From contig NC_092675.1 of the NCBI RefSeq assembly GCF_964355755.1, positions 30,476,912-30,540,911 of the forward strand: a DNA stretch of 64,000 nt, written 5' to 3'. Below, one piece after another: positions 312 through 32,175 of this stretch. The DNA comes from Antedon mediterranea (Eukaryota; Animalia; Echinodermata). The notes beneath the pieces were generated by a model. It searched no databases, had not been told where the DNA came from, and worked only from the letters and a program-made list of their open reading frames with translations. A program made the translations under genes and the position numbers. Each line of letters starts with the position of its first letter. The first letter of the stretch is position 1.

Positions 312-3300
312 CTTTTGGCATACAGCGGACTCCAGCATCATTTTGGTGTCCGCACGATGACGTCAGAACACTATGGCCACACAGATGTAATCGTGGCTCA
401 GTACCAGTACATTGAACACTAGTGAAGTGGATCGGACCGACTCCTTCACCAAATTTAGATCCAGTCACGGCAGAAAGAGCATCCGGGTAGTCTAATTGAC
501 GACAGACGACTTTTGCATCTTTCTGGTCCCATTCGTTATCGCAAACCGTACCCCATTGACCGTCCTTAAATACTTCAATACGGCCCTCGCTTTCCAGGGT
601 GCCTCCTCTAAATCGAAGGGTAGCTGTAGGAAAAAACAAACATTGTAAATGTATTATGTGGCAATCATTGGATGAATAGGTCTATACGAATACATGTCGG
701 AACATTATTATCTGTTTTGCCCTACATCTATATTATAAGTGAGAGAGTTTGTTTGTTTGTTTGTTTGTTTTTTCGTTATACAAATTTGTGTTACTGCACG
801 TAACCTTACATATTGAGCATCAAAATTACCGCAATTGTACCGGGAAGGTTCTAAACTACATTTGAACATCATCCACCATCTTGGATCCAAGTTAGGGGCT
901 GAAATGTGGTCAAAATGGCCCACTTTTGATGTTTGTTCGTTATACAAATTTCTGTTCCTGCATGTAACCATACATATGGGTTATCAAAATGATCGCAATT
1001 GTACTGGGAAGGTTTTAAACTTCATTAAAAAAAAGTCCGGGGATTTGGTTGGAGAGGGGGTGGAGGGTTGGGAGATAGGGTGTGAGAGTTGGGGTTCAGG
1101 GTATAGTGGGATTTTGCTTAGGCTAGGGGTAGTAGGCTATCAAATTGACCAGAAATGTGGTAGGAAATTATTAAAGTATTTTAATTATCACTGGGAAGGG
1201 GATGGGAGTTTGGGGTGGGGATGTAGGCCTATCACCATGACTGAAACTGTACTGGAACGGAATGTTTTGATTATGGGTTGGGAGTGATGGCTAACATTAT
1301 TTGTACTGGAACTATCTTAAACACATCACCCAGTATCTGGGGTGTGTTGGGAGGGGGAGGAGGAGCGAAAATACTGGCGTAATGAAGTAGCCTATGATTT
1401 TAATTGTACTAGGAAGATTACTACATTTGAACTCTTCAGGAGAGGAGTTTGTTGATTGTGGCTGGGATGGTAAAAGAAGAAAGAAGGCTGGGGGACCGCA
1501 GTATCAAAATGAGATATTTTAATTATCAGCCAATATGACACCTATTCATTTACACAGATTACAACGTACTTAAACCATAGGCCTATCAGACCCCACTCAT
1601 TTTGAAGCTAACGTTTAATTGAATTTGTTTGTTTTTTTTTCAAAAAGAGTGTGGGGTGTTATTGAAGAAAGATGGAGGTTGATGAGTATATAGTGCATCG
1701 GGCTTTATGTACTGAGAAGGCTTCTCAACACTAATTTTGAAACCCGCCCTGGGGCGGGTATTATTGCTAGTATATCTATATTTATAAAAAGATTTTCTTA
1801 CAAATTCCGCAAACCACGCCAGCGTCTTCTTTATGACTACAATCATGTACATTCAAACCATTGTTGTCACAATCAAGGATATTGCTCTCTGATCCAGAAC
1901 ACGCTACATTATCAAGCAGGATGGGTGAGCCAGCATTCCCTTCACCATATGTGGCACCATTTGGAGCCTGAGTAGCATCTACATACCCTAGCTGACGGCA
2001 TACTACTGTCGCATCATGTATATCCCAGAAATCGTCACAAATCGTTCCCCATTCGCCGTTGTAGTAGATTTCAACACGTCCTTCATATTGGTCTGACCCA
2101 CCAACGAGACGAACATCTTGGTTTAAAAAAAAAATCATTAATTATCAAAAGTTACTGGAACACTAACTTCGTTTGTCATGATTTCAAATTTATATGTTAT
2201 ACATACACACAAAATGAAACTTTTTTATAAAATTATAATTCCGATTCTGAAAAAAAATATTACCAATTCAAAATATTAAATATGTGCAGATATTTGTATG
2301 GCAGTATGTTGAGCCAGACCTTTTCTAATTTTGTTATCGTTAGATTTCCTTTGGTGTCATATCATAATACAATATTTGTGACCATCTTACATTACTAAAT
2401 ACTATAAGTAGTTCAGAGTATTATCTTACAATTACAAATCACGCCAGCATCTTCAGAATGACCGCAATCGTGTACATTCAAACCACGGCTGCTACAATCA
2501 AGGATATTGCTCTCTGATCCAGAACACGCTACATTATCAAGCAGGATGGGTGAGGCAGCATTCCCTTCACCATATGCGGCAGAACCTGGAGCTCCAGTAG
2601 CGTATAAATACCCTAGCTGACGGCATACTACTGTCGCATCATGTATATCCCAGAAATCGTCACAAATCGTTCCCCATTCGCCGTTGTAGTAGATCTCAAC
2701 ACGTCCTTCATATTGGCCTGACCCGCCAACGAGACGAATATCTTGGTTTTAAAAAAACATTAACATATTGCACTCACGTATAAATATTGTTGATACTTTT
2801 TTATTTCAAATTTTCACTAAGTATAATACCAATATTCAAAATACTGTAATAATAGAATTGTTAGTAAGTAATAATCTAACAATCATTAGATATAACCTAC
2901 ACTGTGTGTGTAAAAGTGTCCATTGTTTGGTTTACAATATCTAATAACAGTCACCTATTATAGTAGGCATATTTTAAAACAATCTTAAACGCAAATAAGG
3001 CCCCAGAAAACAATTGAACAAATATAATTACTCGTGTAATAGGTTTAAATTTATGTTTAGAATCTTTGATTAAACTAGCTAACTATACACACTAAACTTA
3101 CCTGTTTTTACCGCATCAAGCATAACAATAATGGAAAAGCCCACACAAACTTACCTGTTTTTACCGCATCAAGCATAACAATAATAGAAAAGCCCACACA
3201 AACTTACCTGTTTTTACCGCATCAAGCATAACAATAATAGAAAAGCCCACACAAACTTACCTGTTTTTACCGCATCAAGCATAACAATAATAGAAAAGCC

Positions 3301-4728
3301 CACACAAACTTACCTGTTTTTACCGCATCAAGCATAACAATAATAGAAAAGCCCACACAAACTTACCTGTTTTTACCGCATCAAGCATAACAATAATAGA
3401 AAAGCCCACACAAACTTACCTGTTTTTACCGCATCAAGCATAACAATAATAGAAAAGCCCACACAAACTTACCTGTTTTTACCGCATCAAGCATAACAAT
3501 AATGGAAAAGCTCACACAAACTTACCTGTTTTTACCACATCAAGCATAACAATAATAGAAAAGCCCACACAAACTTACCTGTTTTTACCGCATCAAGCAT
3601 AACAATAATAGAAAAGCCCACACAAACTTACCTGTTTTTACCGCATCAAGCATAACAATAATGGAAAAGCTCACACAAACTTACCTGTTTTTACCGCATC
3701 AAGCATAACAATAATGGAAAAGCTCACACAAACTTACCTGTTTTTACCGCATCAAGCATAACAATAATAGAAAAGCTCACACAAATAACAATAATGGAAA
3801 AGCTCACACAAATAACAATAATGGAAAAGCCCACACAAATAACAATAATGGAAAAGCTCACACAAATAACAATAATGGAAAAGCTCACACAAATAACAAT
3901 AATGGAAAAGCCCACACAAATAACAATAATGGAAAAGCCCACACAAATAACAATAATGGAAAAGCTCACACAAATAACAATAATGGAAAAGCTCACACAA
4001 ATAACAATAATGGAAAAGCTCACACAAATAACAATAATGGAAAAGCCCACACAAACTTACCTGTTTTTACCGCATCAAGCATAACAATAATAGAAAAGCC
4101 CACACAAACTTACCTGTTTTTACCACATCAAGCATAACAATAATAGAAAAGCCCACACAAACTTACCTGTTTTTACCGCATCAAGCATAACAATAATGGA
4201 AAAGCCCACACAAACTTACCTGTTTTTACCACATCAAGCATAACAATAATGGAAAAGCCCACACAAACTTACCTGTTTTTACCGTCTCAAGCATAACAAT
4301 AATAGAAAAGCCCACACAAACTTACCTGTTTTTACCACATCAAGCATAACAATAATGGAAAAGCCCACACAAACTTACCTGTTTTTACCACATCAAGCAT
4401 AACAATAATGGAAAAGCCCACACAAACTTACCTGTTTTTACCACATCAAGCATAACAATAATGGAAAAGCTCACACAAACTTACCTGTTTTTACCGCATC
4501 AAGCATAACAATAATAGAAAAGCTCACACAAACTTACCTGTTTTTACCACATCAAGCATAACAATAATGGAAAAGCCCACACAAACTTACCTGTTTTTAC
4601 CACATCAAGCATAACAATAATGGAAAAGCTCACACAAACTTACCTGTTTTTACCGCATCAAGCATAACAATAATGGAAAAGCCCACACAAATAATTCTGA
4701 ATGCCGACATAGTCCCTAGGGGTGACAT
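312..4728 (-). CDS. Paralog C (5' part only) of the SRCR/Tie-like receptor tyrosine phosphatase; continues beyond the left window edge
   Basis: Signal-peptide exon 4644-4728 ([28 protein letters not shown], donor CAG|GTAAGT). Phase 1-1 SRCR exons at 2430-2741, 1802-2116 and 312-623 ([22 protein letters not shown]..EDAGVxC). Exons and introns closely match the 5' end of paralog B. The PTP domains are not in the window and are inferred from paralogy. Confidence 0.85.
727..1770 (+). mobile_element. Non-autonomous Helitron (~1.04 kb) in an intron of paralog C
   Basis: Starts A|TCTATATTATAA followed by (GTTT)n. Ends with the GC-rich hairpin ACCCGCCC-TG-GGGCGGGT (1742-1759) and then CTAG|T. No TSD. 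Absent from the equivalent intron of paralog B (~23930-23970). Confidence 0.85.
3095..4690 (-). repeat. 53-bp tandem minisatellite made of the 3' half of exon 1 plus its splice donor (25 donor copies), with an internal 10 x 27-bp sub-array
   Basis: Minus-strand unit GGGCTTTTCCATTATTGTTATGCTTGATGCGGTAAAAACAG|GTAAGTTTGTGT. The plus-strand 'cttacctg' recurs every 53 bp from 3097 to 3733 and from 4056 to 4639. The 27-bp unit (CVSFSIIVI) lies at about 3780-4050. Confidence 0.95.
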
Positions 4729-5937: not shown

Positions 5938-8900
5938 TTATTGGAAGTTTCCATAGGTTTCGAACGAATCAAGGTAGTACTGTGCCGTCTCGTAGCATGA
6001 CTTGTATTGCTCCTGTAAAGTAAACGTAACATTATCTATAGGCCATGTCATTACAAATACATCGTTACCATCAATTGTAAAGTAAATGTAACATTAGCTA
6101 TTATCATCAACTTCCATTGTTATTCTTTTCGTTGTCATCCATATTAAAATCTTATCATCACGGTAGTCATTTGACATTGTTATCGTTACATGAATATTCC
6201 TTTTACAATCCCATGCCATGTTAATGCCTGGTGTGGATACATAATTTATCATTCTAACATTAACAACACTCCCCACGCTCCCACATTTACCATCACTGTT
6301 AATAAAAGTCTTCATTGATGTCATCACGATCGGAAATTTGTTTGTCATCATTCGTCATTAGTATTTAGTAATATTACCTTAGACTTTATCAAAGACGGAC
6401 AAGTACTTTTAATCCGTTTGATATTCTGAAAGACGTCAACGATGGCTTCTTCATTAATCATCTGAATGATCGAGTCTACTGCGCAGAAGTATCCACATCG
6501 ACTCCTGCCATCTCTGTGGGTGAATGCAAAGAACATTTATCATAATATTTCAAACCATCAATGCAGTGCATGACTGATGACTGATTTAGCAACATCCCAT
6601 TTCTAAATGCTTTTGCCGTATCGAAATAGGAAATTAAACAATATTGTACACAAAGGTCTTTAAAGGCGCAAAGTCAACCAATTACACAATTATTTACTTA
6701 TTACTTTATTTATATTATTAACAGATATTCAAAATCTTGTATGCGCACTTGTTGATGGCGTTACTTATACTATAGTCAAATATCATTCGGCTCCATCCAC
6801 ATTAAGGTCCTAATTAAAAGATCTTTCAGTTGTTGAAGTAATTTGGCCCGCTTGTAATAATTATTTAATAGTTTATTTGTTGTTTTTTTTTATTATTATT
6901 CTTGTTTGACACTTACAAACAATGAACAGCAACGATGTTGTGTTGATTCATTCGTTTACACTTATCAACATCGGATCGTAGTTGCAAAAAAGATTCCACT
7001 GAAGTAGGCTTTCCTGAATTATTAGGCCAATCACAATATTGAAAATGATGTATTTCCCGACGCTTTTGTTTAATCTTGGGAAATAAAAATATTGTTAGAA
7101 AATAAAATTTAAAGCAACCAGGTGTAAGAAAATGTTTAACATTTACTTGGATAGTTAGATAATACTTAAACAGTAAATGCAATACGCATCCAATGGGTAG
7201 GCCTACCTTTGATAAATGCAATGTTCGTTTTATGATACAACCATGGTGTTCGCTTGAAACAAGTTGAACAATAAAGGGGCCGACGATTGTTTTAACATTA
7301 AACTCTTGTGGAAAATAAGCACCGATCGTCTGAATAAATAAATATACTAATTTATTCAAATTACAAAATAGAAAAATAAATACAATAAATAATATTATGT
7401 AATAAATATTATTATTCTGGGAAGAATGATAGTCGACATAAAACAACAAACATGATATAATTCCATATAGAAAGCAATGGTCTTGTGTTAATCTATCTAT
7501 TGATTTAGAAAATAACCTCATTTTTGCAATGCCTTTATAAAAACCTTTCTAAAAATACATGTTTATATTTATTACCTTATCATTGGTGTCTTCGTTGTTT
7601 AACATTACAATGGTATGCAAATTATATTCATAAATTAATCTCCAAAAGTCCGACACTGTGTTTGGCATCGGTGCTTGCGTCACAACATACTTATTATCTT
7701 GTAGTCCGTAGCCCTATATGATATAACATGATAGGCTCGTATCTGATCAATTATCTTACATTAACAATACTACAGATGATGTTCAAGACATTTAGATTAT
7801 ATTGATACATTAAAACGCCATAATGTTGTAACACTGCACTGTGTAGTGTTGGATAAATAAATTGAAGATATAAAAAGTGCTTATTTATGTTGTGCTTATT
7901 ATTTATACATTTTCACGACGTTCAAATATTGTTTTTTCCGTGTAGAATGTTTACATTTACTCAAACAGTTGTATTCAGTGGCCAATATACAACTAAGGTT
8001 CCAAATAAAAGTGTGTACTGAAATACATTATATAAATAAAATACATTCTGTAGTCATTAAGTTGGGTCACTGAATGTCTCTCTTCCATTAAGATATACTT
8101 ACTTTACAAAACGAAGCATTAATATAATCGTTACGATCCCCATCTGTAGATAATAGAAAAGGTATCGCATTGTCCACTGAAATATAAAATAAAACTGTAC
8201 AATAATTTGCCATCTTCACCACATTAATCCCCAGTGGGCTAGATTATGAATATCATAATCATCATTATTATTCAGCATCAGTCGTAATCCTCATTATCAT
8301 TATCTTGTTTTTTGATCAACAAAATATAATGCAGGTATAAGTTTATCATCATTATTATCAAGATTATGGACATCACCACCAAGAAATTGAATTACCATTT
8401 GTAGACATTTCTTTCTTTTTCAATCTGTTTTAATTTCACAAATAATTTGAAAATCACAAGAAATGTTAATCGATTTGAAATAAATATTGAATTGAATTTT
8501 ATTGATACGTACACGGTACTATACGTGGATATCTGTTCTTATTGACGTTTGCATACTTAGTACCTATGCGAGTTGCATCAGGCGATGGAAGCGGTGACAG
8601 CGCATCCAGGACCTTTAATAAAAAAAACAATCGACATTTTTTTGGGAAAAAGCATCACAACATTATTTCTTATTATTGTTGTTTTATAAATTAGTATTCT
8701 AATTTCAGTTTAATAGTAACCCTTAGTAATATATATTATCCGAATACTGCAGTTGATTGATATATTACTCACACTCTGCTGTTCCTGTAATCGTTTTCTT
8801 CCAAGTCGACTATTGGTTTCTTTCAATTGATTGAAAGAATTCATGAATGCCCCTGTTGGTATATGAGTCGGTTCACAAAATAAACTCTCCAAAATAGTCT

Positions 8901-11900
8901 CGTAAATAAACACATACTGTTCCTAAAATGAACAATTTAGGTTTCCTTTTTAATTGTCTACAAACATAGAAATAATAAACCTGTATAATATTCCAAAAAT
9001 GTCTAGTAACTGAAAAAAACAACATACTACTCAAGCCATAGTCGTAAGAATCTAAATCATAAATATAGAGATCTAGTACAGATATAAAGGCAGTGTGGCA
9101 TACCTCTGTCAAAGAATATCGATTGATATAGTATTGTGGTTTGTATTGTTAGTTGTACAATTACAGTTGTTGACATTCACTTACCTGTGTTTGTACCATA
9201 TTAAGCTTGTTTTCTCTCATTTCTTTCACAAAGTTGTATACATCGATTTTATCCTTTTCTTCAGCCATGTCCAACATAGCATCAATGGTTATTACTATAC
9301 CAGTCCGTCCAACGCCATCACTTATAATAACAAAAATCAAATCATTTTACTCTTCCACATTAATATTCACTGCAATGCCTTTAATACTTTTAAATAATAC
9401 TTTTAACAACGAACTATGACAATGATATGTAATTAGTTTGCCGACAAGTTTTTAAAAATTCGTAATTTAAACTGAAAGTTTGTTGCCGTGTGTTTTTTTT
9501 TCTACAAAAAAATTATTTGGAAATGTTTCATTTGGTAATATTAGCATTCTTTAAGATAATTATTAGAAAGATAGAAATTAGTGTATTTCCAATCTCTTTA
9601 AATGATATACAACTACTTTAAAATAAGTCTTGTCTTTACCTGCAATGAACTATCACTGGACCAAGAGATGTTTTTGCATCTTTTATTTCATAAATAAACT
9701 CAAGTAGAGGTGCTGGAGATGTAGGAAGATGTATGTCCACCCATGCGGTGAATTGGTAATGTCGCACAAATTTCTCTGCTTTGTTCTAATTTTGTTAATA
9801 ATAACATTCAGTCATCTTTAGGTATACCTTCAATTCATTATTTAGTTGGTACTAATTCGTATAATTTACCTTTAGATCAATATACTTACAGCAATATGCA
9901 GAATAGTAAGCCTGTCTACTAGCAAACGTTAAGTTTGCAAAAACGGCCGAACTCGAGGTTTGCGCAGACAAAGGTTTCCTAGTAAAGCCGAGGCTAAACT
10001 AGGAAATTTTAAACTGTGAGTTTACTTGTTCACCCATATCTTCTTCTACACACGCGCACTGCACTGTCCTCTCCACGATTCTGGGTCTGTTTTAACGTGT
10101 TACTCCTGGTGGATGTTGCAACTCTCTCATTTTCTCTTTCTGATTATGTGAACCATCGAATTAGTATCGACTGTTATATGGGTTCTGTTAGATTTCCGGA
10201 TTGTATGTATTTTCATGTTGCCGAAACACTCGAGTAGATGAGGTATGGCAACCCCAATTATCACATCCGAAACTGTTACCATAAGACAGAAATAAAAAAA
10301 TAAAATACTTACTATTTTCAACCTGAATGTCCTAATGGTGAAATTTCTATTTACATTTTCGTTTACATTCTGAACAAAAATATCACCATATTTATTTGTT
10401 TCTCCTGCTTCAGGCCAGTACTGTATACATTTCATCTACATAAATAAAAATATACAAATAAACGCATAATATTAATTGGATGTTATAGCTTAATAAACTC
10501 AATAATAAGAGCAATAGGTTGCCACTGTGAATAAAGGCAATAGTGAATCATGTGACCTTACCTTATGTTTCTCCACTAGATTTGTAACCATAACAATGAT
10601 ATTGCTTTCTTGCCAAACCATTCTCCAAGTATCATTCACGCTTGCTTCATTTGGACCTGTATGTATTTAATGGCATCATTTAATATGTATAACATTTGGA
10701 TCTGTATGTATTTAATGGCATCAAACGTTTTTAAATGTATTTTAAATATGTAAAATAGTATGATATCTTAATTTCATTTCTATTCAAATCGGTAATTATT
10801 CTTGAAATGCATATTTATACATAATAATATTTTTTAAATACCTTGAGATGCAATGTACGCTTTAGGATTGTCTTTAAACTGTAAGATAAATTTTAAAATA
10901 AAATCTTTATTTCATGAATAATCATACTCAAAGACGCTTTAAATAGCATATTATTACCCAGGTCATTTTTTTTATCAAACACGTATGGAAACATAATCCA
11001 ATAATACAGCTAGTAATCAGCGCAAAGCTGTGTCTAACCGGCTACCCATTTTATACACCTGGGTGGAGAAAGTAAAGTATCTTGCCTAAGGATACAAGAA
11101 ATGTAGCAAGAGTTGGATTAGAATCATGATCTCACGATCATTCATCCAACGTCTTATGAAAAATGAGTGATCCAAACTTATTAATAACTTGTTAATATAT
11201 AACAACTTTGTTTTAACCTTGATATATGAAGCGTTAATATAATCGGATTGACCATCATCAATGTCCTTTAGAATCACACGTGAGTGGTCATCTAGAAGAA
11301 AAAGAAAGCCAAATGGTATTACTCAGTAATGGTATCATCACGGGACACGCATTTGACGTATAATAATGATATAAATGTAAGAACAATTATTAAAATAACG
11401 TTTTATCATAAAATAATAATGTTATCTAATCTGCAGACCGTAATACTGTTTCGATCTTAATATATTTATTTTATCAAAATGCACAATTTCACTTACTGAA
11501 TTCATATTGTAAAAGTTATAGATATAATAACTTACACGGTAAGATGTTTCTAAATCTATTCTTATTCGTGTTGTTATACTTATTAGCTTCGGTGCATGGA
11601 TATAAAAGTTGGCATCCAATATCCTATGTTTTAAAAGGAGCAAAATGTAATATAAAAAATAAACATTACAGATAATATATTGTGTTTGTTACATTACATG
11701 TCATTATAAAAGAACCTAAAACCAAAATATACCGTACAACAAATATCAATCAATTTTATAGATTTTAACCAAGCAACTAAACTCACGTCAAACTCTTTTT
11801 GAAAGGTTTCAGTTTTGTGGTCTTTTCGTTTGCGGACGTACCCTTGAAGATCGTGCAAACGTACTGGCTGATAGCGGGTTTTTAGTTTCGATTTTGACAC

Positions 11901-12030
11901 AGATTTCTGTGATGGTATTGGTGTAAGTTTCGGCATAGGATTTGGACCAGGTTTCAGTGAAGTCATAGGTTTCAGAGTATTTATTTTCGGGTTAAGTGAA
12001 TCATCTCCAAGTTCATTTTCGTCGGAATCT
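5938..12030 (-). CDS. Tandem PTP domains (D1+D2) of paralog B
   Basis: Exons include 11536-11623 (KNRF), a 37-nt exon at ~10842-10878, ~9640-9785 (WVD...HCS), ~9185-9320 (DGVGRTG), ~8511-8612 (KNRY), ~6918-7074 (WPN...HCL), ~6379-6513 and 5938-6012. All are GT-AG and phase-compatible. Confidence 0.92.
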
Positions 12031-15000
12031 GTAGACAAAATCATTTAGTAATTGATAAAACATGTTTTTTTTTTGTTTTTTTTGGTAAGGCTTACCCATC
12101 CTACAAATTGTTTCTTCTTTCTTTTAAAGTTTTGGCTGATAATAATAATAATAATGTGAAAAAAGGGTCATGTGCAAAAACATTTTAATACTACTAATAT
12201 AACTTGCTGTGAGAGCAAATAGCATGGTGACAATTCTCAGTGCTGAAACGTACAATAAATAATATTTATTTAATCAAGTGAATACTTAATTATAGAATAA
12301 TTATAATTCCAATTTATTGAATGGGGTATAATAATGAAGCATTTGATTTTGTTATACATACCTTGTCCGTAAGCGTTATATAACACGTTCGGTACAGCAA
12401 TATTGTCAGTTGTATCGTTAAGTCTTCTAAAAGTTGTACTGATAAAATAATTTAAAGAAATTAAAAAAAAATTAGATTCCACATGCATCAAATTCACTAA
12501 AAATAAAGTTAGGCTTACGTGGTAGGTAAAGAATATATTATTGAAATTCGTGGTGACGCAATTACGCAACTAGGTATGCCACATTCAAAATAAGCTCTCT
12601 AAACCATCATTGCTATTTCCCATCCCAGCTCAACAAACTTTTATACATTTTTGATTGTTAATGCATTCATTCATTTAGCCAGACATTTAGCAATACAAAA
12701 AATCAAAACATGAATATCAAAAATGAATTAACTAAATTACTGTAAATTCTTGTCCAAACTAAGAGATTCTCAATGATATAGCTTTTATTAACTTAATGAT
12801 ATACATATATAATGGAACAATAAATGATTGTAGTCTACATTATAAACAATACAAACCCTATATTGTCCTACCTTCGTTTGAATATCACAACCAATACAAG
12901 TAGTATCACCAAACACACAATTATCAGTCCTGATATTAGTACAACTAAATAAGAGAGGAAATTATTATTTTCATATTATTATGTCGATAAATAGAACAAT
13001 TAATATCAATACTAAGTAAAAAACATAGGACAAATTTTATAAAAATAAAGAAAATGAATAAAACAAAATTAATGTCTTTACGTACCTCTAACTTGTGTCT
13101 TATATGCTGCGCTTATACCTCCATTGTCAGCAGAAGTACCCATATCATTACTCGCCACCACCTACAAGCAAAAACAATCAGGCAACCCAACGTTTATTTT
13201 TGTAGAAAGGTATATTTTGAGTGTTGACTGATCAGTTTCAGCAGGAAAATATTGGTAAACATTTTACTACAAAAAAATGTGTGACAGGATAACTTGCCTA
13301 AATAAAATGTGAAAGTGTAAAAACAATTAAACAATTTATTTTTTGTCTGTACGTTTATAATTATAACTGACCTCAACGGTATACTCTGTGTTTGACTTGA
13401 TACCATCATCACTCGTAAACTTCGTACTCGTTACTGATCCACTAACGGTTTTGCTAATTTTGCCACCACCTGATGACGTCAGTGTCACTGTATAATTATG
13501 TACTGTACAATCATTACTGGTTGGAGCTTCCCATTCAACTTCAACTGTATCCTTTCCGGGAGTTACTTTGATATTTTCAGGATCTCCCGGAGCTAAATGG
13601 AATACAATGTTTACTGTATAGAAGGCCTTAGTAAATTAATAAAAACATTTTAAACAAATAGAGTTATTTAAACTACATTCCTGATCAGTATTCTTACCTA
13701 CAGTGCCACTTTGAATAATATCAGATGTTTTTGGTCCTTCTAGATCTTGATTCTTTCCATAAACTTCAAAAGTATATTCATTACATGGCTTTACAGCTAT
13801 TTTCACTGTGTTAGACTTTGTAGTACTTTTTATAACAACATTACTCTTGTCTTTTAATGAATATTCATATATCATGTCACCATTACGACTACCACACGGA
13901 ATCTCCAACCACGATATAGTTAAAGAATGTGGCTCTTGATCAGACATTTTCATTATCTTAGGCGCTTTATCAGGAGCTTTTTTAAGAAATAAAGAAGAAA
14001 CTATTATTAATATAATCATGTTATAGGATTTTGTGGATTTTAGGATGTTTTATATTACCTTTCCTCTGACCACATTCCTGCAAATCATATGACAATGTTT
14101 AGAATCAGTTGGAACTAAAGTAAGATCATATTTCTTTTTTACATTTTAGAATCACAACATACTATGAATTAATACTAATAGTTTACTATAGTGCATTTAC
14201 TGTATGATATGCCAATCAGTGGCGTATCCAGTTGGGGGGGGGGGGTGGATACCCGGACCCCCTTCTGATTTCGTGTTCGTCGGCACATCATCGCGTCCGT
14301 CGGCAAACAAAGGTGCCGGGGGAAAAAAATAGAGTTAGGATAATAAGAATAAACTATTATTCAGACAATAATTGAACTGTAAACATAATTCTTTTGAGTG
14401 TTTGTTTATTTACATATCATATCATTGATCCCTTCAGATCAACTATTTTTTATTTTCATTACATCTAACGAAAAACGTAAAAAATGTGGTCAAAATATCT
14501 TATTATCTAGAACGTACGTACGGCCGTACGCGTACGCGCTAAATTGTTTACTCAAAAGTCTTTGAATGGTCCGGTGACCTTACCCTATTCAACCTTGTTT
14601 TTGCAGCTGAGCCTCTCATGACCTGGGATTTGTATGGTTCCTACGCTAAGATTATATAGTTCCACATGCCATATGCTTTTTTCTCTAAGATATATTTATT
14701 ATAAGTGCCAAAAACCCGTTTTTTTTTTCTCTCGATATGAGTCCTTTATTATTAAAATTTTCTAAAGAAAAAGCACACATACCATACAAAATATCCATGT
14801 ATTTCATTTTTGGAACCGAATAGCCCGCGAGGCTCAACTACAAAACCACCATTTTGTGATATGATGTCATCGTAAGCCAATCAAAGCTGAGCTTTCTCGT
14901 GATTGGGATTGCCCACGGTTGAATGATTTTGGATTCTGGCTTAATTGATCGGTGGATGCGAACCCGCAGCGGAATCTTTTCTCTCGCGCGTGTACCATGA

Positions 15001-18000
15001 ATCTCTCTGATCGTTACTACACACAAAGTTAGAGCAATGAATTTTTCCAAATTCCGTTAATTAAACAAATTTATATATTTTATAAGCATTTAATAACATG
15101 TTTTATTGATATTTTCAATGGTGATATATAAAATAAATTACTAAAAAACGTAATTATATGTAATTATTTTAACCAAAAATGGCACAGTTAATAGATTCGT
15201 CGACTGAGGCCGCAAATTGTTTTACTTCTTTCGTGGCTAAAAACGATCAATTTCGGCGATGTTTTAGAACCTATATTTCGAAAACTACAAGTCAGATTTT
15301 CGTAATTCATTCTTTATTGTAATATTAATACAACATACTAACATATAATGTTTAATTTGGTTTTAATTTTGCATCGTTATCCCTATAAGACAACATGACT
15401 ATGCAATCCTATAACATAATTGATGTGTAGGGCTAGGCATGTGTACAGTACACGTAATGACCCTGATTTTGTCGGCAAATTGGCAATTCCCGACTTCAAA
15501 ATCCTGGATACGCCACTGATGCCAATGACCTAAAGAATAGGAACACAGTCTAGTAAACATGATATTAAGAAAGGTATAGTGTATCTCCTCGAATTTTTAT
15601 TTAAATTATTCACCAATCACCACTTCAAGACATCGTGACGAAAGATGTATTCTATGCAGTAATATATTGTTAATAAAAGTACAGTATTCATTGGGTTGCC
15701 TACCACTTTCTTCTGTTTGTACTGTATGTTCATCTGATGCTGCTCCAGCTACGTCATTAGACACTGCAGTAACTTGGATTCGATATTGAGAATACGCACT
15801 CAGATTTGATAAGATGTATGAAGCAGTTTGAACTGGACCTTTATTGATGACTTCATTACTAGTGTTATCACACATGTCAAATTCTATTAACTGATAAGTT
15901 ACGTTGTATATGACAGGACAGTTTCCATTTGTCACTTCATTCCAAGAAAAAGAAATGTAGTCTGGCCCTGAAGTATCAGTAAGTCCTTCAACTTTGGACG
16001 GAACTAAGAAATACATAACAATATATGTCTGTTAGTAAAAAAATAAACAAACAATCTGATATTATATTCAACGATTGTTAGTAATGCCTGCTGACCCATC
16101 TGGTAGATTAATCTATAAACGAAATAGAAAGTAATACAATACATTGCAAATACGATAAGATAAGATGCAACCTATCAAGTTGTCTTCAAACTGTCATCTC
16201 GTTGCGAAAGCGGCTCGACAGACACTTTTTTGGTTTTTGTTAGGAAAATGGTCGTCACATATATCTACACAATGTTACAACACAATCAGACGGAAGATGT
16301 TATTAAAAACAAAATTGGGGAACACACAGTGCAGCCAAAAGTGTGCCACACCTACAATTGGAAGGTTAATGTTTAAACAAAAATTTAATTTTAACATTTT
16401 TTTTACCAATTTCGAGAGTTTTAGTTGTTTCAATATTGCTCCATGGTCCTTTGAATCCAGCGTTGTTCTCTATTCGTACTTTACATGTATACCACGTGCA
16501 CGCTGTTAACCCATCAATTGTAGTCGATGTAACATCACTGACAGTGACAGTTCTAGATTCTGAATCTGACTCACAACATACATCATAATGAAAAGTGTTG
16601 CATTGTATTTTTTCTGCATCATTATTTATTTCCTGCGGAGAAAAATTAAAGCTATAACTATAATTGTAATTCTCATAGTTATATTCAAAGAAGAAGAAAA
16701 TACAGAATCAACACCCACCTGCCATGCGACTGTTAATGAAGAACTGGATGGATAAACTGCAATAATATGTAGAGAAACCAATGGCGCTATAAAAAAAAAA
16801 CTAACCAAATTAAGAAAGTATCGTTACCTCCTTTGCCTTTGAGTGTAAAAATACAAAATAGCAACAATGTAAGCTTATTGTCAAGGTTAATTATTCTAGT
16901 CTAGTCACAATTATTTTTCTGTCAAAGGTTTCTATGCTTGTTTTCAGATGATGAATATGAATGGTTAATTGATGTTTATAAATATATTGATCAATTGATC
17001 TTACTTGAACATATCGTTGATTCTGTCACAACTTGACTGTCTGGTCCACAAACATCTTGTCCGTCGATGTTCTTACAAACACGAACTTTCACCTCAATTG
17101 TTCGATTTGGCGGTAATCCAGTAATTGTAAACACGTCATCAGTTGTTGTGATTGTTGTAAATGTTGATTCTTCTTCACTTTTATATAACACTTTATAAGA
17201 TGAAGCTGGTCCAGTTCCATAATCTTCACCAAAAGTCCAACCATACGAGACAGTCATATTGGTGGCTGTGACGTCAGTAATTGTTATTGTCTTAAATAAA
17301 TGCGGTAAAGCTGAGGAAATGAACACGACGTATATTATGGAGTGATTAAAATGTGCATCTGGTTTTGGATATCCATGAATTAGCAATCAAAAATTAGCTA
17401 AATTAACCCTTCTTAACCCTGTCGAGAAGAAAAATATAGTAACGGGGATGGGGAATAATACATTTAGTTACTTACTCTATTTGGAAATGTTATTATAGTC
17501 ATTCGATTATTATGTATGTACTATGGATATTGACCAAAAATGAATAATGAATAGAATGGTTTTAGAATAGCTAAATTTAACAGTAATGTATAAGGGATAC
17601 ATTGATTAAGCTTGATAGTACATTGACGTTTTGGTATTGATCACTTTTGGTAGAAAAAATATGGTAAGTTATTATACATTAAATGTTAAAATTTACTCAC
17701 CTATCTGGCAATCGTTACCTCCCCATCCATACGCACAGTCCCCACTATCGCAGTAACCAGTGGTTTTGCTGCATGAGGAAGATGTTTCACAGTGACAACT
17801 ATACTGACAAATCTCACCAAATTTTCCATCAACGCATATCACGTGGTCTGGAGAAAAAATACATTGTTAGTTCTTTTTCTCTTTTGTGCATACATATTTA
17901 GTTAGGTTAAATAATTTGTCTATTCCTATTCCATGAAAGAAAGAAAGAAAATACATGGAGGAAATGAACAACAAAAATGTAAATATTGAATAAATCATCA

Positions 18001-21000
18001 TTATTCTATTCTATTTGTGTATTTGATTGTGCATACAAATTATGCAGTTCTAATCATGTATCATATTATCATATTTATTATTAGGCTATTATGCTGTATT
18101 TTATTGACTCTTATTAATGTTTGATCATATTCTTTGATAACATGTATCTTGAACATGTATCAAGTAAATCAGGTATACGTTATAGAATATAGTCTTTAAT
18201 TGTTCCCAGGATAGAAACGATGGCCTTCATTCATCCACATTTATTTGAAAGAGTCCACGAAAAACAAGCATGCATTTACAGTAAGTTAAATGGTACAATA
18301 ATATATAAACTATTTCAGGGATCGGAATCAGAAGTAAAAAAACTTGTTTTATACCAATCCAGAAAAACGGAAAAACAACTGCATGACATCATTAATAACA
18401 ATGATAGCTATTTCAAATATTTCATTTAACAAATGCAACTACGGCACATTATGATTTTATTTGGAAATAATATGTTTCCAAACATATTATTAAATATGTT
18501 TAGGTTTTTGTTGTAGTTTCTGTAGACAGTTTATTACATAACTTAGGACCATGTACTGTAACAAACAATTTAGTCTTTTTAGCCAAGTAAATGTGACTTC
18601 CGATCTGTTGGTATTGCTAAGATGATAAATGTTACTTACTTTATGTTTGAAAAAACATAAAGTTAAAACATAAAGTTAGAGTTTAGCAATAAATTATTCA
18701 CATTATCAATAATGGATACAACTTGTAAGCTATGTAGATCGTAAATATTTAGAATGTTTAACTTCTTAAATAAAGCTTCACTACACTATGAGCTATAAAA
18801 TGGGATAACGAAATAATTCTTACAACTCGTTTCTGTAACTTAAGAATTTTCATGATATTAGTGGTAAAGTCGGCTGCCCAGATAATGTTGCAATATTGCA
18901 AATGAGGAAAAATAATAGCATTATATAAATTAAATATGTTGAGAACAAAATTAAACTACAGCTTAAATATTTTACAAAAAGTCCAATAAATTATTTACAA
19001 TTAATTAATCTTCGTAAGTTTTGTAACTGGGCAAATTGTGTAGGCCTATCACCATCGGTCACGTATATAACAGCAGTAATTTGAGATCAATGGTATGAAT
19101 ATTATATTTGCATATCAAACTAAATTTACCAAGACATTTATTTCCCTCATATCCACCACTACATGTAGCAGCTCCACCTGAACATCCTATTTCGTTGCTA
19201 CAATTTGAACTACAATGACATTCTTGGTTACATCCTGCACCATAGGTTATCCCTGTACATTCTGTTTAAACAGATAAAAACACTTAAATAACAATGAAAA
19301 CGTATATATTTGCTATGAAACTGTTATATAGAAGAGAAAATGATGCAATAATTGTAAAACAAAACAATGAGATCACAAAAGAAATCCAATAATAACATAA
19401 TAGTTTAGATTTAGTGGATATTAGTAATATTTCCCAATTTACATTAATTGGTTTCCATCTTACCCTTTTCTCAATTTTGTTTCTCAGTGTTAACTGTTCG
19501 TGGGAGACCAATGCGAAAACAATTACATTTAGCCAACATATAAATTAAAAACTTACATTGCAGAGAGACAATAGTTTGAAACTGTCGTTTATGATTTACT
19601 TAAGCATAATATTAATAATTTATTTATTTACAAACCTTCTTCGCATGTATCGCCATGGAAACCTGCAATACAATCGCATCCAACAGGATCTGGAGGACAT
19701 AACATGGTTCCTGAGCATGTTGATCCTTCTCTACCCGAGCACTTAATACCGCATAGTCGACCCCAATTATTGTTACCACATCCTAAAAAGTTTTGAAATG
19801 TTAAAGATGTTATATATGTCATATGTCATGTTGCAACTGAATTTTAAGTTATACATATCTAGTATTTAGTTCAGTAACCGAAAATGTTCAGACAAAATTA
19901 CGGAGCGCCGTCCAACACACTACAGTACCTATTCTGTCATACAAACCATGATTTGTATTTTACAAACCACAGTTTGTCTTTTTATTATAGATAAATATTA
20001 TTGGTTTTTTTTATTTTAGTACAAAGTAAACCAACGGCTTTTATAGTTGGGCATGTGCGGCTGTCAAGCTGACTACCTCAAAATTGATTGCCTAATGAGA
20101 GTAGATTTGCCCCAAGTCTGTAATTATCTTTTTTATGTTAGTCCACCAGTCGAATTTTTTGAGTTTCTTGTCTGAAATACGAGTATTATATTATATGTAT
20201 GAAACGTTATATGTGCCAAAATATTTATCTTTATAATTACGGGATCTATAGTGAGGGTTGTAGCCAAACACAGTAATAAACGACACGGGTTGAAATAAGT
20301 TATAACACTGGGGTAACCACCTACTCTTTCCAAAAGATGCACTAGGTTCGAGTTGGATGTGTACATTGTAGTACCTCCATATTTAAGTCTGTGGTCGAAG
20401 AGTGCCTTCAAAACTGAAGCAAATATTATTCATGTAGCTCCCAGTGTCTCTATATCCTAACCACTCGACCACTGGACTCGATTTGAAGTATATTAATATT
20501 TTACATGAACGAGATAACCGATAGGTTCACACTCTTGTTCAACCTGGGGTTATTTTGGTAGTTATTCCTACCAAGCAAATCACAGGTTATCTTCAGTTTT
20601 GGGTTTATTATCTGAATGTAATACCTGTTATTCCAAGAAAAAAGAAACGCCAACTCAACTTAGTTATCGTTAGGCGTACTAGCTTAGCTAGCAAGGTATG
20701 GTAGTACCATCACGGACCAAGTCATTACAAATTGAGTATATATTGAGTTTTTTCTTCTTTTTTTTGTCATCATAGTCTGTTCCTCTCCCCCCCCCCCCCC
20801 CAGTCGCCTATGTCGCTATCACTTTAACCCGTTTTTAAATTAATATGGCAATGCTTTTAATCTACCTTGTGAACAAGTATCGTCTTTAAATCCTGCTGGA
20901 CATATACATAACCCAGTCACGTGATCACAAATTCCTCCGTTATAGCAAACTGGACAATTATTATCACAAGTTGATCCATATTTCCTTGTAGGGCAACCTT

Positions 21001-24000
21001 TTTTTATTATTAAGATAGCAGAAAACATCATTAACGAAAGACTAGCATCAAATAATAAATTGATAAGATTTTTTTCTGTATTTTTTTTTTATTTTGAGTT
21101 TCAGGTAAAAGTTATATTATGATTACTAAATAGTTAATTACAATTAATAATGAATAATTAATTTTTTAGGCATATTCTTAACGATGAGTAAAAGGCAATA
21201 GATTGAGTTGTGTTTACACAGAGTCGAACAAGTTATAGTAGTAAGGAAAGCAAAAACAAAATAATTGTTAACAACTCACCTCTGACAATCAATCTCATCA
21301 TTGCATGTTTTCCGTTTCTGTCTTTGTAACATTCATATATTCCAGCATCACTTGTTCTGATATTATTAATAGTCAATGTATCTTTACCATTGCCTTCTGG
21401 TATATCAACGTTGTTTAATTTCCATTGCAATTCTGATGCACTGATTGTGGTACTGACTTGTAAAGTCACGTGATCACCAATACTAACGGTAATAGATCGT
21501 CGGTATGGAGTGACGTCAGCTTTTAAAAAAAAATGTCCTCTTTAAAGTATAATGTAAATTATCTAGGCCTAATTATCAAATTGTTACAATTTAAATTTGA
21601 TTGCTTTCCGGGAGCGTGTGTGTGTGTGTCTTGTATGTCTATTTGTGTTTTGTTTTTTGCTCTTATTGACACTTTGTGTACATTAATATAATATGTACAC
21701 AAAGTGTCAATAAGAGCAAAGTCTTAAATCTTCGACTCCACCGGGCTTGCATTTCTTTTTTAATATAAATGATTTGCTTCCTTTTACCTGATAAATAATA
21801 TTTGTTTTGATGAAATGAATACTAGTTGTATTGTTATAATTGAAAAAGAAAGAAGAAAATAAATGATTAAACTTGGTCTAATAATGTATATGATAGATGT
21901 TATGAAAAAAGTGTACAATTGAAATATTCTACGTTACATAATCCTTTTTTAATATAAATGTATATAATTTCTCCCGTCAATATTAATAGGATGTTGCATT
22001 AAATGACATTAGTAATGACATAGAAAACATTTCTTACGGGAATTAGATAGTTTGATAAGCTGTATTGAAAATTAGACGACTCACCATTTTTAGGCAAAAT
22101 TATGAAGGGTATATGTTGAGATGTATTGTCCTTTGTAGCATTTGCAAAGAAAGCACCGACCTTTTGAGGGCCTGAACCACCATTGACATCGACAACCACG
22201 GCAGTACGTCCATCTCTATCTGATAATAATATCATTGATCCTGCAGGGAACATTGTATCTGAAGGAACAAGCGTGCTTCTTTCTTGATATTGATAACCAT
22301 CACCATCAACATTATCATCATTCCCTGTTACAGGTCTTCCTTGTAGCCCAGTGCCTGTGTCGCTTTCTCTTCCAAGTGTTATATTTCGAGTTCTATCTGG
22401 TTCATCGGTGTAACCTCCAAATGTTGACACTGTGTAATCATCAATGTTAACCATTGGATTTGGGCACCAGATAGTAAGATCAAGAATTTCACCTGTTACG
22501 TACAATTATTGTGTTACTTTACTGAGAATAATTAACAATACAAGATAAATAGGTCAATTTTGTATACGAACTTTCTATTCTCATCGAATATGCAATTAAC
22601 GTGCATTGTTACAGCATAGCTGAGTAATTTAGAAACAAATTAGAAATAAATAATTATATATTTCATAAAATTGAAAAAAATTTATAATCAAATATATAAT
22701 ATGTAAAATTCACATGATTATTTCACTATTTCTTAATTTTATGGCAAACTGTTTGCAAAGAGATACAGATACATTGCTAGTTGTGCTGTGATTTTTTTTT
22801 TGTGGAAGGCGGTACGCGTTAATAAAAAATTTCTAAATGTTGACAATGGAGGAATACAAAAATTAAAAGCTATTTCAATCTTTCAAATTTGGTTATCGTC
22901 AATAATGATGATGACATTATACAGTATAATATTTTTGGGTAAAATACTGCATTTTTATACTAAATGAATTTGTGTTATACGCACTTGGAAGTTTACATTT
23001 TACACCCACGTCCTCCCAATGATTACACTTAGGCTTCCCCCATACGCTATGGTCACACGCTGCTAAATTAGTCTCTTGTCCATCACACTCAACCTCACTA
23101 AAATGTATTCTTCCACTGCCCGCTCCAAAAATGTCACTATTTGTAACCTCCGCCGCTCCAAAGCCAAGCTGCCGGCAGACTACATCGGCGTCAAAGCGAT
23201 CCCAGTTGTCATCGCATACTGTTCCCCATTCCTTGTTGTAGAAGTACTCAATGCGACCCTCAAATGAGTTTAAGCCATCAACTAAACGAACTATAATATA
23301 GAAATGTGTTCATCCAAAAAATATATATATTTTCACCAATAGTAAAAAAAAAACAATGCCGCTGAATTGTTGTCGGAAGCGATCACATTTAAACAAGAAA
23401 AATAGAAAATAATTACTTGGTTGGAAGAATGATTGGAATCAATAGTGTTAATACATACAATTTGAGTTACAAACCTTTTGGCATACAGCGGACTCCAGCA
23501 TTATTTTGTTGTCCGCACGATGACGTCATAACACTATGACTACACAAATGTAATTGTGGCTCTGTACCAGTACATTGGACACTACCGAAGTGGATCGGAC
23601 CGACTCTTTGACCAAATTCAGATCCAGTCACGGCAGAAAGAGCATCCGGGTATTCTAATTGCAGACAGACGACTTTTGCATCTTTCTGGTCCCATCCGTT
23701 ATCGCAAACCGTACCCCATTGTCCGTCCTTAAATACTTCAACACGACCCTCGCTCTCCAGGGTGCCTTCTGTCAATCGAAGGGTATCTGTAGAAAAAACC
23801 ATTGTAAATCTATTATTTATTCATCTATTGTGACTATAAATTATCTGCTTATCTGCCGGTATCCTTATTAAGCACCGGGTCAACCCTTGTTTTGATGAAC
23901 AGGCCTATACGAATAAATAACGGGACATTATTATCTGTTATACATATATTTAAATTTATAAAAGGATTATCTTACAATTTCCGCAAACCACGCCTGCGTC

Positions 24001-27000: not shown

Positions 27001-27580
27001 AAGCTCACACAAACTTACCTGTTTATACCGCATCAAGCATAACAATAATGGAAAAGCCCACACAAACTTACCTGTTTTTACCGCATCAAGCATAATAATA
27101 ATAGAAAAGCCCACACAAACTTACCTGTTTTTACCGCATCAAGCATAACAATAATGGAAAAGCTCACACAAACTTACCTGTTTTTACCGCATCAAGCATA
27201 ACAATAATAGAAAAGCCCGCACAAACTTACCTGTTTTTACCGCATCAAGCATAACAATAATGGAAAAGCTCACACAAACTTACCTGTTTATACCGCATCA
27301 AGCATAATAATAATGGAAAAGCCCACACAAACTTACCTGTTTTTACCGCATCAAGCATAACAATAATGGAAAAGCCCACACAAACTTACCTGTTTATACC
27401 GCATCAAGCATAACAATAATAGAAAAGCCCACACAAACTTACCTGTTTTTACCGTATCAAGCATAACAATAATAGAAAAGCCCACACAAACTTACCTGTT
27501 TTTACCGCATCAAGCATAACAATAATGGAAAAGCTCACACAAATAATTCTGAATGACGACGTAGTCCCTAGGGGTGACAT
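5938..27580 (-). CDS. Paralog B: receptor-type tyrosine phosphatase, SP - SRCR x6 - Tie-like Ig x2 - EGF-like x4 exons - FN3 x5 - TM - PTP D1 - PTP D2 (about 38 exons)
   Basis: Exon 1 is 27496-27580. SRCR exons span ~22985-26179; Ig-like exons ~22085-22493 and ~21280-21519; EGF exons ~17701-20997; FN3 exons ~13086-17310. TM exon ~12871-12945 ([24 protein letters not shown]). D1 motifs: [43 protein letters not shown]2 motifs: KNRY, DYINAS, VHCLDGRSRCG. Last exon 5938-6012 ends [11 protein letters not shown]. The 88-bp and 37-bp D1 exons match the usual RPTP exon pattern. Confidence 0.9.
10950..11155 (-). mobile_element. Degenerate tRNA-derived SINE (same family as 29054-29375), shared with paralog A
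   Basis: Reverse complement contains TCCTTAGGCAAGATACTTTAC..TCCACCCAGGTGTATAA..GGTTAGACACAGCTTTGCGCTGATTACTAGCTG, matching the plus-strand copy at ~29140-29250. Confidence 0.7.
14217..15518. mobile_element. Non-autonomous hAT-type DNA transposon (~1.3 kb)
   Basis: 15-bp TIRs CAGTGGCGTATCCAG / CTGGATACGCCACTG. Perfect 8-bp TSD ATGCCAAT (14209-14216 and 15519-15526). Absent from the paralogous intron of A (~38350-38380). No transposase ORF. Confidence 0.9.
20130..20480 (-). mobile_element. Possible degenerate SINE-like interspersed repeat
   Basis: tRNA A-box-like head on the minus strand (AGTGGTCGAGTGGTTAGGAT near 20455-20475). Boundaries uncertain. Confidence 0.3.
21656..21720. repeat. Perfect 28-bp inverted repeat with a 9-nt loop (intronic hairpin)
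   Basis: TTTGCTCTTATTGACACTTTGTGTACAT-TAATATAAT-ATGTACACAAAGTGTCAATAAGAGCAAA. Confidence 0.9.
23970..25870 (-). repeat. 635-bp tandem duplication unit (SRCR exon plus intron), three near-identical copies
   Basis: The acceptor motif (plus-strand 'cttggtt') occurs at 24291, 24926 and 25561, giving a period of exactly 635 bp. The introns are almost identical. Confidence 0.92.
26641..27545 (-). repeat. 53-bp tandem minisatellite of exon-1 end plus splice donor (17 donor copies) in paralog B
   Basis: Same unit as 3095-4690. 'cttacctg' recurs every 53 bp from 26643 to 27491. No 27-bp sub-array. Confidence 0.95.
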
Positions 27581-31800: not shown

Positions 31801-32136
31801 CATTTGTAGACATTTCTTTCTTTTTCAGTCTGTTTTAATTTCAGAAATAATTCGAAAATCAAAAGAAATGTTTTTAAATGTTAATCAATTTGAAATAAAT
31901 AAATATTTAATTGAATTGTATTGGATACGTACACGGTACTACACGTGGATATCTGTTCTTATTGACGTTTGCACACTTAGTACCTATGCAAGTTGCATCA
32001 TGCGATGGAAGCGGTGACAGCGCATCTAGAACCTTTAATTAAAAAAAACAATCAACATTTTTGGGGGAAAAGGGATCACAACATTATTAGGTTATATGCA
32101 TGATATGCATATAACCTCTTGATTCTGTCAAAATCT

Positions 32137-32175
<39 letters not shown>

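What the first reader, a model, noticed from the sequence alone, without database searches (positions are those of the whole stretch)
3095..4728. Array of 25 tandem consensus splice donors built from the signal-peptide exon (paralog C)
Seen: the 53-bp unit is the last ~45 nt of coding exon 1 ([15 protein letters not shown]) plus its CAG|GTAAGT donor, an optimal U1 match. Paralog A has one copy, B has 17 and C has 25. Because 53 is not a multiple of 3, reading past the first donor hits TGA at once (GGT AAG TTT GTG TGA), so only the most 5' donor gives the full receptor. Each unit also holds an in-frame ATG (MLDAVKT) downstream of the hydrophobic core, so a distal donor plus re-initiation or leaky scanning would give a signal-less isoform. 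Inference: a copy-number-variable dial on productive splicing, NMD or localization, or a promoter-proximal U1 landing pad. Variation between units falls at a few exonic positions and never in the donor 9-mer.
Basis: partly seen in the sequence, partly recalled or inferred. Interest (0 to 1): 0.85.

Follow-up and report, generated by a model that had tools for sequence, protein, structure and literature searches.

The report
Splice-donor minisatellite in feather-star receptor gene
A 53-base piece covering the end of a feather-star receptor gene's first coding exon and its splice signal is copied 25 times into the next intron, an arrangement already known from human and lancelet genes, and the cell likely still uses the first copy, so it is probably tolerated repeat growth rather than a control dial.

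Summary
The array is real: 25 full 53-bp units in paralog C, 17 in B, one copy in A, each with CAG|GTAAGT. Contigs of organism A hold the repeat at high depth; a relative about 5-7% diverged has a single unit between both flanks, so the array is young and the strong donor is ancestral. Donor invariance is what chance gives (P 0.16-0.38). Three of 17 B units carry a stop in the internal-ATG frame, and a last-donor mRNA has dozens of upstream ATGs, so a signal-less isoform is unlikely. Gene B keeps an intact 2,222-codon frame under first-donor use. This is a new member of a known kind: boundary-spanning ('mirage') minisatellites, as in human F7, CBS and 6-16 and in lancelet Adh3. Which donor is used was not measured, because no spliced exon-1 RNA was listed. 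Mammalian experiments on perfect duplicated donors disagree, so partial diversion to distal donors stays possible (about 15%).

The parts
4644..4728 (-). Paralog C first coding exon, [28 protein letters not shown], predicted signal peptide, ending at the first donor 4644|4643
   Evidence: Translation; 11-residue hydrophobic core, mean Kyte-Doolittle 2.95; phase 1, joins SRCR1 without a stop
4056..4691 (-). C array, 5' block: 12 full 53-bp units (unit 1 is the exon end plus the true donor)
3786..4055 (-). C array, middle block: ten 27-bp half-units lacking donor and internal ATG
3097..3785 (-). C array, 3' block: 13 full units; last donor 3102|3101
2742..3096 (-). Unique part of C intron 1; begins TTTAGTGTG, a near copy of the unit start TTTGTGTG (likely slippage seed)
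2430..2741 (-). C SRCR1 exon (acceptor 2742|2741)
   Evidence: Pfam PF00530 E 9.7e-32
312..2116 (-). C SRCR2 (2116-1802) and SRCR3 (623-312) exons; gene C runs off the window
   Evidence: no stops
27496..27580 (-). Paralog B first coding exon (predicted signal peptide)
26643..27543 (-). B array: 17 full 53-bp units; units 3, 5 and 10 carry TAA in the MLDAVKT frame
5938..27580 (-). Gene B model: 38 exons, 2,222 codons; signal peptide, 6 SRCR, Tie-like region, Ig, EGF-like repeats, FN3 repeats, TM, two PTP domains
   Evidence: five 3' introns match spliced joints in run X5
47732..47798 (-). Paralog A first coding exon with a single CAG|GTAAGT donor (array-free state)
   Evidence: matches residues 1-22 of XP_071954286.1, which continues into SRCR1

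Best explanation
This is a minisatellite whose first unit spans the exon 1/intron 1 boundary of a crinoid SRCR receptor phosphatase gene; it likely arose by replication slippage and grew by unequal exchange, and most productive splicing likely still uses the first, cap-proximal donor, so the extra donors are probably tolerated decoys. Shown: unit structure, counts, stops after every distal donor, single-unit state in paralog A and in one contig of a relative, short sequence match at the duplication junction, open frame of gene B. Inferred: slippage origin; spread to B and C by the roughly 23-kb tandem duplication or by conversion; first-donor dominance. Any leak to distal donors would make early-stop mRNAs that are predicted to be degraded, a cost rather than a product.
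For: Young and simple origin: a 733-base contig (depth 155.2) of run X7, organism B, carries the upstream flank, one unit and the downstream flank (record 60-293 on 4636-4859; record 31-113 on 3061-3147; taken as one record from equal length and depth), with flat depth over the unit. Junction match TTTGTGTG / TTTAGTGTG. A second, unrelated two-copy duplication across a donor lies in the same window (63634-63729; its paralog at about 54130 has one copy). Units drift like neutral repeat: donor invariance P 0.16-0.38, ten units lost the donor, 3 of 17 B units have an in-frame stop. Gene B is intact under first-donor use, where neutral decay over the 2.0% per-lineage divergence of the duplicated tract predicts about 6.7 nonsense and 3.0 GT/AG hits plus frameshifts; A-B dN/dS is 0.48 in the intracellular part (P 0.03). 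Precedent: only the authentic donor is used in F7, LMNB2 (100-bp unit) and PDGF (81-bp unit) (PMC1557585); mirages appear not to disturb splicing in lancelet (PMC3087553); two identical CAG/guaagu sites with 365-nt flanking introns gave exclusive upstream use in cells (PMC9225289), and the intron left by the last C donor is 360 bases.
Against: Donor use was not measured here. Perfect donors are the case in which the upstream rule weakened in F7 minigenes (70-90% use of perfect downstream sites, against a weak first site). Strong duplicated sites 45 nt or more apart were used about 100% at the intron-proximal copy (PMC3413131); the spacing here is 53. The upstream-use experiment concerned an internal exon, whereas this exon looks like a first exon (no good acceptor within 200 bases upstream in C). 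The RNA is less structured than shuffles (z +3.0), so distal donors are not hidden. B versus C 5' exons give dN/dS 0.69, not significantly below 1 (P 0.20). The decay argument fades if the array is much younger than its flanks (ten times younger: P 0.017 with frameshifts, 0.38 without). The public model XP_071954286.1 skips B exon 1. The exon model was fitted to avoid stops within 20 bases of hand-placed boundaries.
Confidence: 0.68

Rival explanations
1. Copy-number attenuator: perfect, accessible donors 53 bases apart draw a substantial share of splicing to distal copies, giving early-stop mRNAs, so unit number lowers the output of B and C (for example buffering dosage after duplication).
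For: Intron-proximal preference for strong duplicated sites 45 nt or more apart (PMC3413131); perfect sites compete in F7 minigenes; pseudo-sites are partly used in human 6-16 and CBS; all distal donors give stops; donors unstructured; the array sits only in the two duplicated paralogs.
Against: No junction or expression data. Donor invariance is chance-level. Upstream use was exclusive for this exact 9-mer in cells. Single unit in the relative, so no conserved role.
Confidence: 0.15
2. Near-silencing: the last donor takes almost all splicing, so B and C are effectively knocked out and on the way to pseudogenes.
For: About 100% intron-proximal use in some tests; public model omits B exon 1.
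Against: B has 38 exons with AG/GT boundaries and no stop or frameshift; C's four exons in the window are open; expected disabling hits under neutrality are about 10 or more if the array is as old as its flanks.
Confidence: 0.08
3. Signal-less isoform: a distal donor plus re-initiation or leaky scanning at the in-unit ATG makes a receptor without signal peptide.
For: Every full C unit has an ATG in frame with SRCR1, with a purine at -3.
Against: 3 of 17 B units have TAA in that frame; in B the ATG precedes the stop, in C it follows by 17 bases; many upstream ATGs for later donors; the same ATG exists in array-free A. From general knowledge (recalled), disulfide-rich SRCR domains would not fold in the cytosol.
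Confidence: 0.03
4. Self-erasing (recursive) array: each CAG|GTAAGT also serves as an acceptor, so internal or distal splices are re-spliced to the same productive exon 1-SRCR1 junction.
For: Geometry allows it: joining donor 1 to any unit's CAG regenerates the donor or the normal junction; a TTGAT branch-like motif (consensus recalled) lies about 15 bases upstream.
Against: In a matrix from gene B's 37 acceptors the commonest unit scores -3.8 to -4.6, matched or beaten by 31-36% of 496 decoy AGs, with only 1-2 of 37 real acceptors as low; T content of -20..-5 is 4, below all 37 real sites. The GTG-variant unit does better (-0.45). The matrix is small.
Confidence: 0.04
5. Assembly artefact.
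For: None found; exact copy number per allele was not measured.
Against: Units carry patterned variants; X1 has a goes-back-53 contig at depth 418; X5, another sample and study of the same organism label, has unit contigs at depth 119-333 against 4.6 for its exon-1 contig, though these short contigs do not meet the tool's 31-letter bridging rule.
Confidence: 0.02

Closest known systems
Human F7 intron 7 37-bp VNTR, with 6-16 (25 pseudo-sites), CBS, LMNB2 and PDGF cases cited there (PMC1557585; read: abstract, synopsis, introduction, results section 9, discussion)
   Same: First unit spans the exon-intron boundary, so the donor is reiterated in the intron; 6-16 also has 25 pseudo-sites.
   Different: Here the unit is 48 of 53 bases exonic (F7: 4 of 37), the donors are perfect consensus (F7: CV 74), the exon is the signal-peptide and apparently first coding exon, and two tandem paralogs share the array.
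Lancelet 'mirage' minisatellites in Adh3 and globins BflGb6/BflGb9 (PMC3087553; six passages read; the original Adh3 paper was not held, and is known only through that paper)
   Same: Tandem copies of an exon-intron boundary with splice signals in a marine invertebrate deuterostome; unit size within the 10-160 bp range reported.
   Different: Crinoid; allelic length variation and somatic instability were not tested here; donor use unmeasured.
Duplicated strong 5' splice site experiments (PMC3413131, eight passages; PMC9225289, abstract, first part of results and ten passages)
   Same: Identical strong donors over 45 nt apart; PMC9225289 used the same CAG/guaagu.
   Different: Two sites in engineered mammalian substrates with opposite outcomes; here 17-25 natural sites in an echinoderm.
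Echinoderm receptor tyrosine phosphatases with SRCR ectodomains (P0103, Holothuria leucospilota, SRCR + PTP by Pfam; the sea urchin name 'PTPRscav' is recalled, and no listed paper held it)
   Same: SRCR repeats, TM, tandem PTP domains.
   Different: The window's genes add Tie-like, Ig, EGF-like and FN3 modules; none of the 44 longer relatives of P0001 listed PF00530.

Membership tests
Boundary-spanning ('mirage') minisatellite | Head-to-tail units of minisatellite size | tested here: met
   53-bp period, 94-95% matches; 25 and 17 full units
Boundary-spanning ('mirage') minisatellite | First unit spans an exon-intron boundary and the splice signal is reiterated in the intron | tested here: met
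   48 exonic + 5 intronic bases; the single copy in A is the annotated exon 1 end of XP_071954286.1
Boundary-spanning ('mirage') minisatellite | Length varies between alleles or haplotypes | tested here: inconclusive
   25 vs 17 between paralogs and 1 in a relative; allele lengths cannot be read from contigs
Boundary-spanning ('mirage') minisatellite | Regular splicing at the authentic site persists | tested here: inconclusive
   No spliced exon-1 contig listed in the one RNA-like run; indirect support only from the open frame of B
Boundary-spanning ('mirage') minisatellite | Somatic instability (reported for lancelet Adh3) | not testable with these tools
   Needs single-molecule typing from tissues
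Splicing-regulatory tandem repeat (spl-TR, PMC10078293; twelve passages read) | Repeat length correlates with splice-site use across individuals | not testable with these tools
   No matched genotype and RNA data
Recursive splice-site array | Functional acceptor (T-rich tract) directly before each AG|GT | tested here: not met
   Unit CAG scores in the decoy range; T count 4, below all 37 real acceptors
Receptor-type protein tyrosine phosphatase (host gene) | Signal peptide, ectodomain, TM, tandem PTP domains | tested here: met
   Pfam SRCR, Ig, fn3, Y_phosphatase; 38-exon model
Receptor-type protein tyrosine phosphatase (host gene) | Canonical catalytic motifs in D1 (HCSAGxGRTG, WPD; recalled) | tested here: inconclusive
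   D1 reads [10 protein letters not shown] and WVD; activity not tested

The most novel reading that the evidence does not exclude
A natural array of 17-25 perfect U1 sites at 53-base spacing behind a first exon shunts much of the splicing of two young immune-type receptor paralogs into early-stop mRNA, so that minisatellite length sets receptor dose in wild crinoids: a splice-donor VNTR acting as a post-duplication dosage dial.
Probability: 0.15. Interest if true: 0.65.

Novelty: new member of a known kind. Interest (0 to 1): 0.27.

Why it matters
If the best explanation holds it is one more boundary-spanning minisatellite and extends the kind to crinoids; I found no echinoderm case in searches, and did not search supplements. 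Its residual value is as a test bed: the donors are perfect consensus, spaced beyond the 45-base threshold and behind what looks like a first exon, which is where mammalian results on upstream versus intron-proximal choice disagree, and an array-free paralog and an array-free relative are natural controls. One RT-PCR would say which rule an echinoderm follows. If distal donors take a large share, repeat length would be a heritable dose control on an SRCR receptor family.

Tried and rejected
No RNA holder was listed on record; X5 behaves as RNA (5 GT-AG joints in the phosphatase region) but also holds unspliced contigs. It listed no exon 1-SRCR1 joint: its exon-1 contig (depth 4.6, B-type) reads through the first donor unspliced, its SRCR contig continues into intron, and it has no cover on 2772-3075 (4 of its 12 laid records not shown). 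This is no evidence on donor use. X5's high array depth (119-333 vs 4.6-9.0) is of the same order as the DNA ratio in X1 (418 vs 7.6-23.9), so I rejected it as a sign of array-containing mRNA. X5's spliced contig could not be assigned to A or B: three letters match A at 7576-7712, while 7207-7329 matches B. X6 had no cover at exon 1, so only 1 of 2 laid organism-B runs bears on the single-unit state. No whole genome was held, so the genome-wide frequency of such repeats was not counted. A 30-base unit pattern found 0 matches in metagenome contigs. Selection on the donor, recursive re-splicing and structural masking were tested and rejected. Neighbouring units are no more alike than shuffled order (P 0.11 C, 0.91 B). 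The in-frame hydrophobic run of the 27-bp block (ORF 3724-4056) has a stop before it and no ATG until unit 13. The array holds no AATAAA/ATTAAA; intron 1 has one (C) or two (B), A's has four, which says nothing for a U1 landing pad. Earlier-findings look-ups by place and by sequence were blank.
Full report
Observation. On the minus strand, paralog C has 25 full 53-bp units from 4691 to 3097, split 12 + 13 by ten 27-bp half-units (4055-3786) that lack the donor and the internal ATG; paralog B has 17 full units (27543-26643); paralog A has one copy. A unit is the last 48 bases of the first coding exon plus GTAAG, so every full unit ends in CAG|GTAAGT with the T of the next unit. The 9-mer occurs 44 times on this strand against 0.4 expected on both strands.

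Host gene. Pfam finds SRCR, Ig, FN3 and tyrosine-phosphatase domains. A hand-guided model of B has 38 exons with AG/GT boundaries and 2,222 codons without a stop when the first donor is used; boundaries were chosen within 20 bases of hand-placed positions to avoid stops, five 3' introns match spliced joints in run X5, and the SRCR exons match a public model. That model, XP_071954286.1 of the crinoid Antedon mediterranea, tiles the window in exact blocks over 1,190 of 1,192 residues but fuses A exon 1 and SRCR1-5 to B SRCR1-6, skipping B exon 1. It identifies the organism as Antedon and shows A's single donor joined to SRCR1 in annotation; it says nothing firm about B. Exon 1 encodes a basic residue, an 11-residue hydrophobic core and a V-K-T end, a signal peptide by recalled rules; no predictor was run. 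B and C are products of a tandem duplication of about 23 kb; the segments flanking the arrays differ by 0.2-5.2%.

What each donor would make. In simulated mRNAs only donor 1 is open. All 24 distal donors in C stop at codon 33 and all 16 in B at codon 44. The in-unit ATG is in frame with SRCR1, but in B it lies before the stop (base 117 vs 132), in C 17 bases after it, and last-donor mRNAs hold 51 (C) or 32 (B) ATGs with one open in frame. B units 3, 5 and 10 have TAA in that frame. The signal-less isoform is therefore unlikely.

Is the donor protected? Nine of 53 positions vary across the 42 full units; the chance that none falls in a given 9-mer is 0.16 (0.38 for C alone), and 11 of 53 circular 9-mers are invariant. 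Ten C units have lost the donor outright. The donor is the strongest of B's 37 (10 of 11 U1 matches, mean 7.1), but A has the same donor as a single copy, so its strength predates the array.

Reality and age. Eight runs were listed, none on record as RNA; four were laid on the upstream flank and three on the downstream flank, all as contigs. X1, possibly the source sample, has a contig that goes back 53 bases at depth 418 against 7.6-23.9 for listed flank contigs. X5, another sample and study with the same organism label, has unit contigs at depth 119-333 against 4.6 for its exon-1 contig; these contigs are too short for the tool's bridging rule. Depth is not copy number, but both fit a many-copy repeat. 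X7 (organism B, 11 other letters in 231 and 16 in 234 on two flank pieces) has a 733-base contig that holds the upstream flank, one unit and the downstream flank, with flat depth and no depth where a unit-unit junction would lie; I take the records of the two calls as one from equal length and depth. Collapse of a repeat in assembly is not wholly excluded, and X6 had no cover there. The array is thus likely younger than that split. The unit start TTTGTGTG resembles the intron just after the donor, TTTAGTGTG, a likely slippage seed. A second, unrelated perfect two-copy duplication across a donor sits at 63634-63729, absent from its paralog at about 54130, so the event is not rare here.

Donor use. 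Not measured. X5 shows splicing in the phosphatase region but only unspliced contigs around exon 1 and SRCR1. Indirectly, A-B introns in the recently duplicated tract differ by 178 substitutions and 49 indels in 4,391 aligned bases; at half that rate a dead gene B would carry about 6.7 nonsense, 3.0 GT/AG and up to 31 frameshift hits, and none is seen. This assumes the array is as old as its flanks; B and C share unit types and variants, which supports that, but at one tenth the age P is 0.017 with and 0.38 without frameshifts. dN/dS is 0.48 (P 0.03) for A-B intracellular exons, 0.39 for FN3/TM exons, and 0.69 (P 0.20) for B-C 5' exons; none is polarised. The RNA folds worse than all 200 shuffles (z +3.0), so structure does not hide the distal donors. 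The unit's CAG scores as a poor acceptor, against a recursive rescue.

Comparison with what is known. PMC1557585 (abstract, synopsis, introduction, section 9, discussion) describes minisatellites whose first unit spans an exon-intron boundary: only the authentic donor is used in F7, LMNB2 and PDGF, and two pseudo-sites are used as well in 6-16 (25 pseudo-sites) and CBS; perfect engineered sites took 70-90% of splicing from a weak first site. PMC3087553 (six passages) names the same structures 'mirages' in lancelet genes and reports that they do not seem to disturb splicing. PMC3413131 (eight passages) reports about 100% intron-proximal use for strong duplicated sites 45 nt or more apart. PMC9225289 (abstract, first part of results, ten passages) reports exclusive upstream use for two CAG/guaagu sites on an internal exon with 365-nt introns. 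The literature thus fixes the kind but not the outcome for this case. PMC10078293 (twelve passages) added nothing specific. The scan's own notes list 27 findings holding my search words, eight shown, several reporting first-site use in sharks and annelids; these are unchecked AI notes and are not counted as support.

Verdict. A real, young, boundary-spanning minisatellite shared by two tandem paralogs; new member of a known kind. Most likely tolerated with first-donor dominance (0.68); a copy-number attenuator is possible (0.15) and cheaply testable. Interest 0.27.

Noticed in passing
window 63634-63729 (-): Two perfect 48-bp copies spanning another exon end and its GAG|GTGAGT donor (13 exonic + 35 intronic bases); the paralogous exon at about 54130 has one copy. 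The domain looks Neuralized-like (recalled; no Pfam hit).
   Followed up: partly
window 47798-22917 (-): Public model XP_071954286.1 fuses A exon 1 + SRCR1-5 to B SRCR1-6 and drops both phosphatase halves; likely a mis-annotation of two tandem genes.
   Followed up: partly
window 9785-9185 and 33640-33010 (-): PTP D1 of B and A reads [10 protein letters not shown] and WVD where HCSAG and WPD are usual (recalled); activity may be low or absent.
   Followed up: no
window 5938-47798 (-): Architecture signal-SRCRn-Tie-like-Ig-EGF-FN3-TM-PTP-PTP; none of 44 longer relatives of P0001 listed an SRCR domain. SRCR exon number differs between paralogs (A 5, B 6).
   Followed up: partly
window 5500-17300 vs 28200-40240: A-B identity rises from about 79% in FN3 exons to 93-96% in the phosphatase region and beyond, suggesting B is a chimera or the tract was converted recently.
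   Followed up: partly
window 4871-6011: X5 contigs at depth 8-10 extend from the last exon of the upstream paralog to within about 150 bases of the next paralog's ATG; long 3' UTR, read-through or DNA background.
   Followed up: no
window 49326-51600 and 60830-62740 (-): Two tandem Mab-21/cGAS-like genes (PF20266) next to the receptor cluster, about 85-93% alike.
   Followed up: no
window 10947-11153, 29080-29302, 34953-35158: A dispersed element of about 220 bases in both orientations, likely a small transposon.
   Followed up: no
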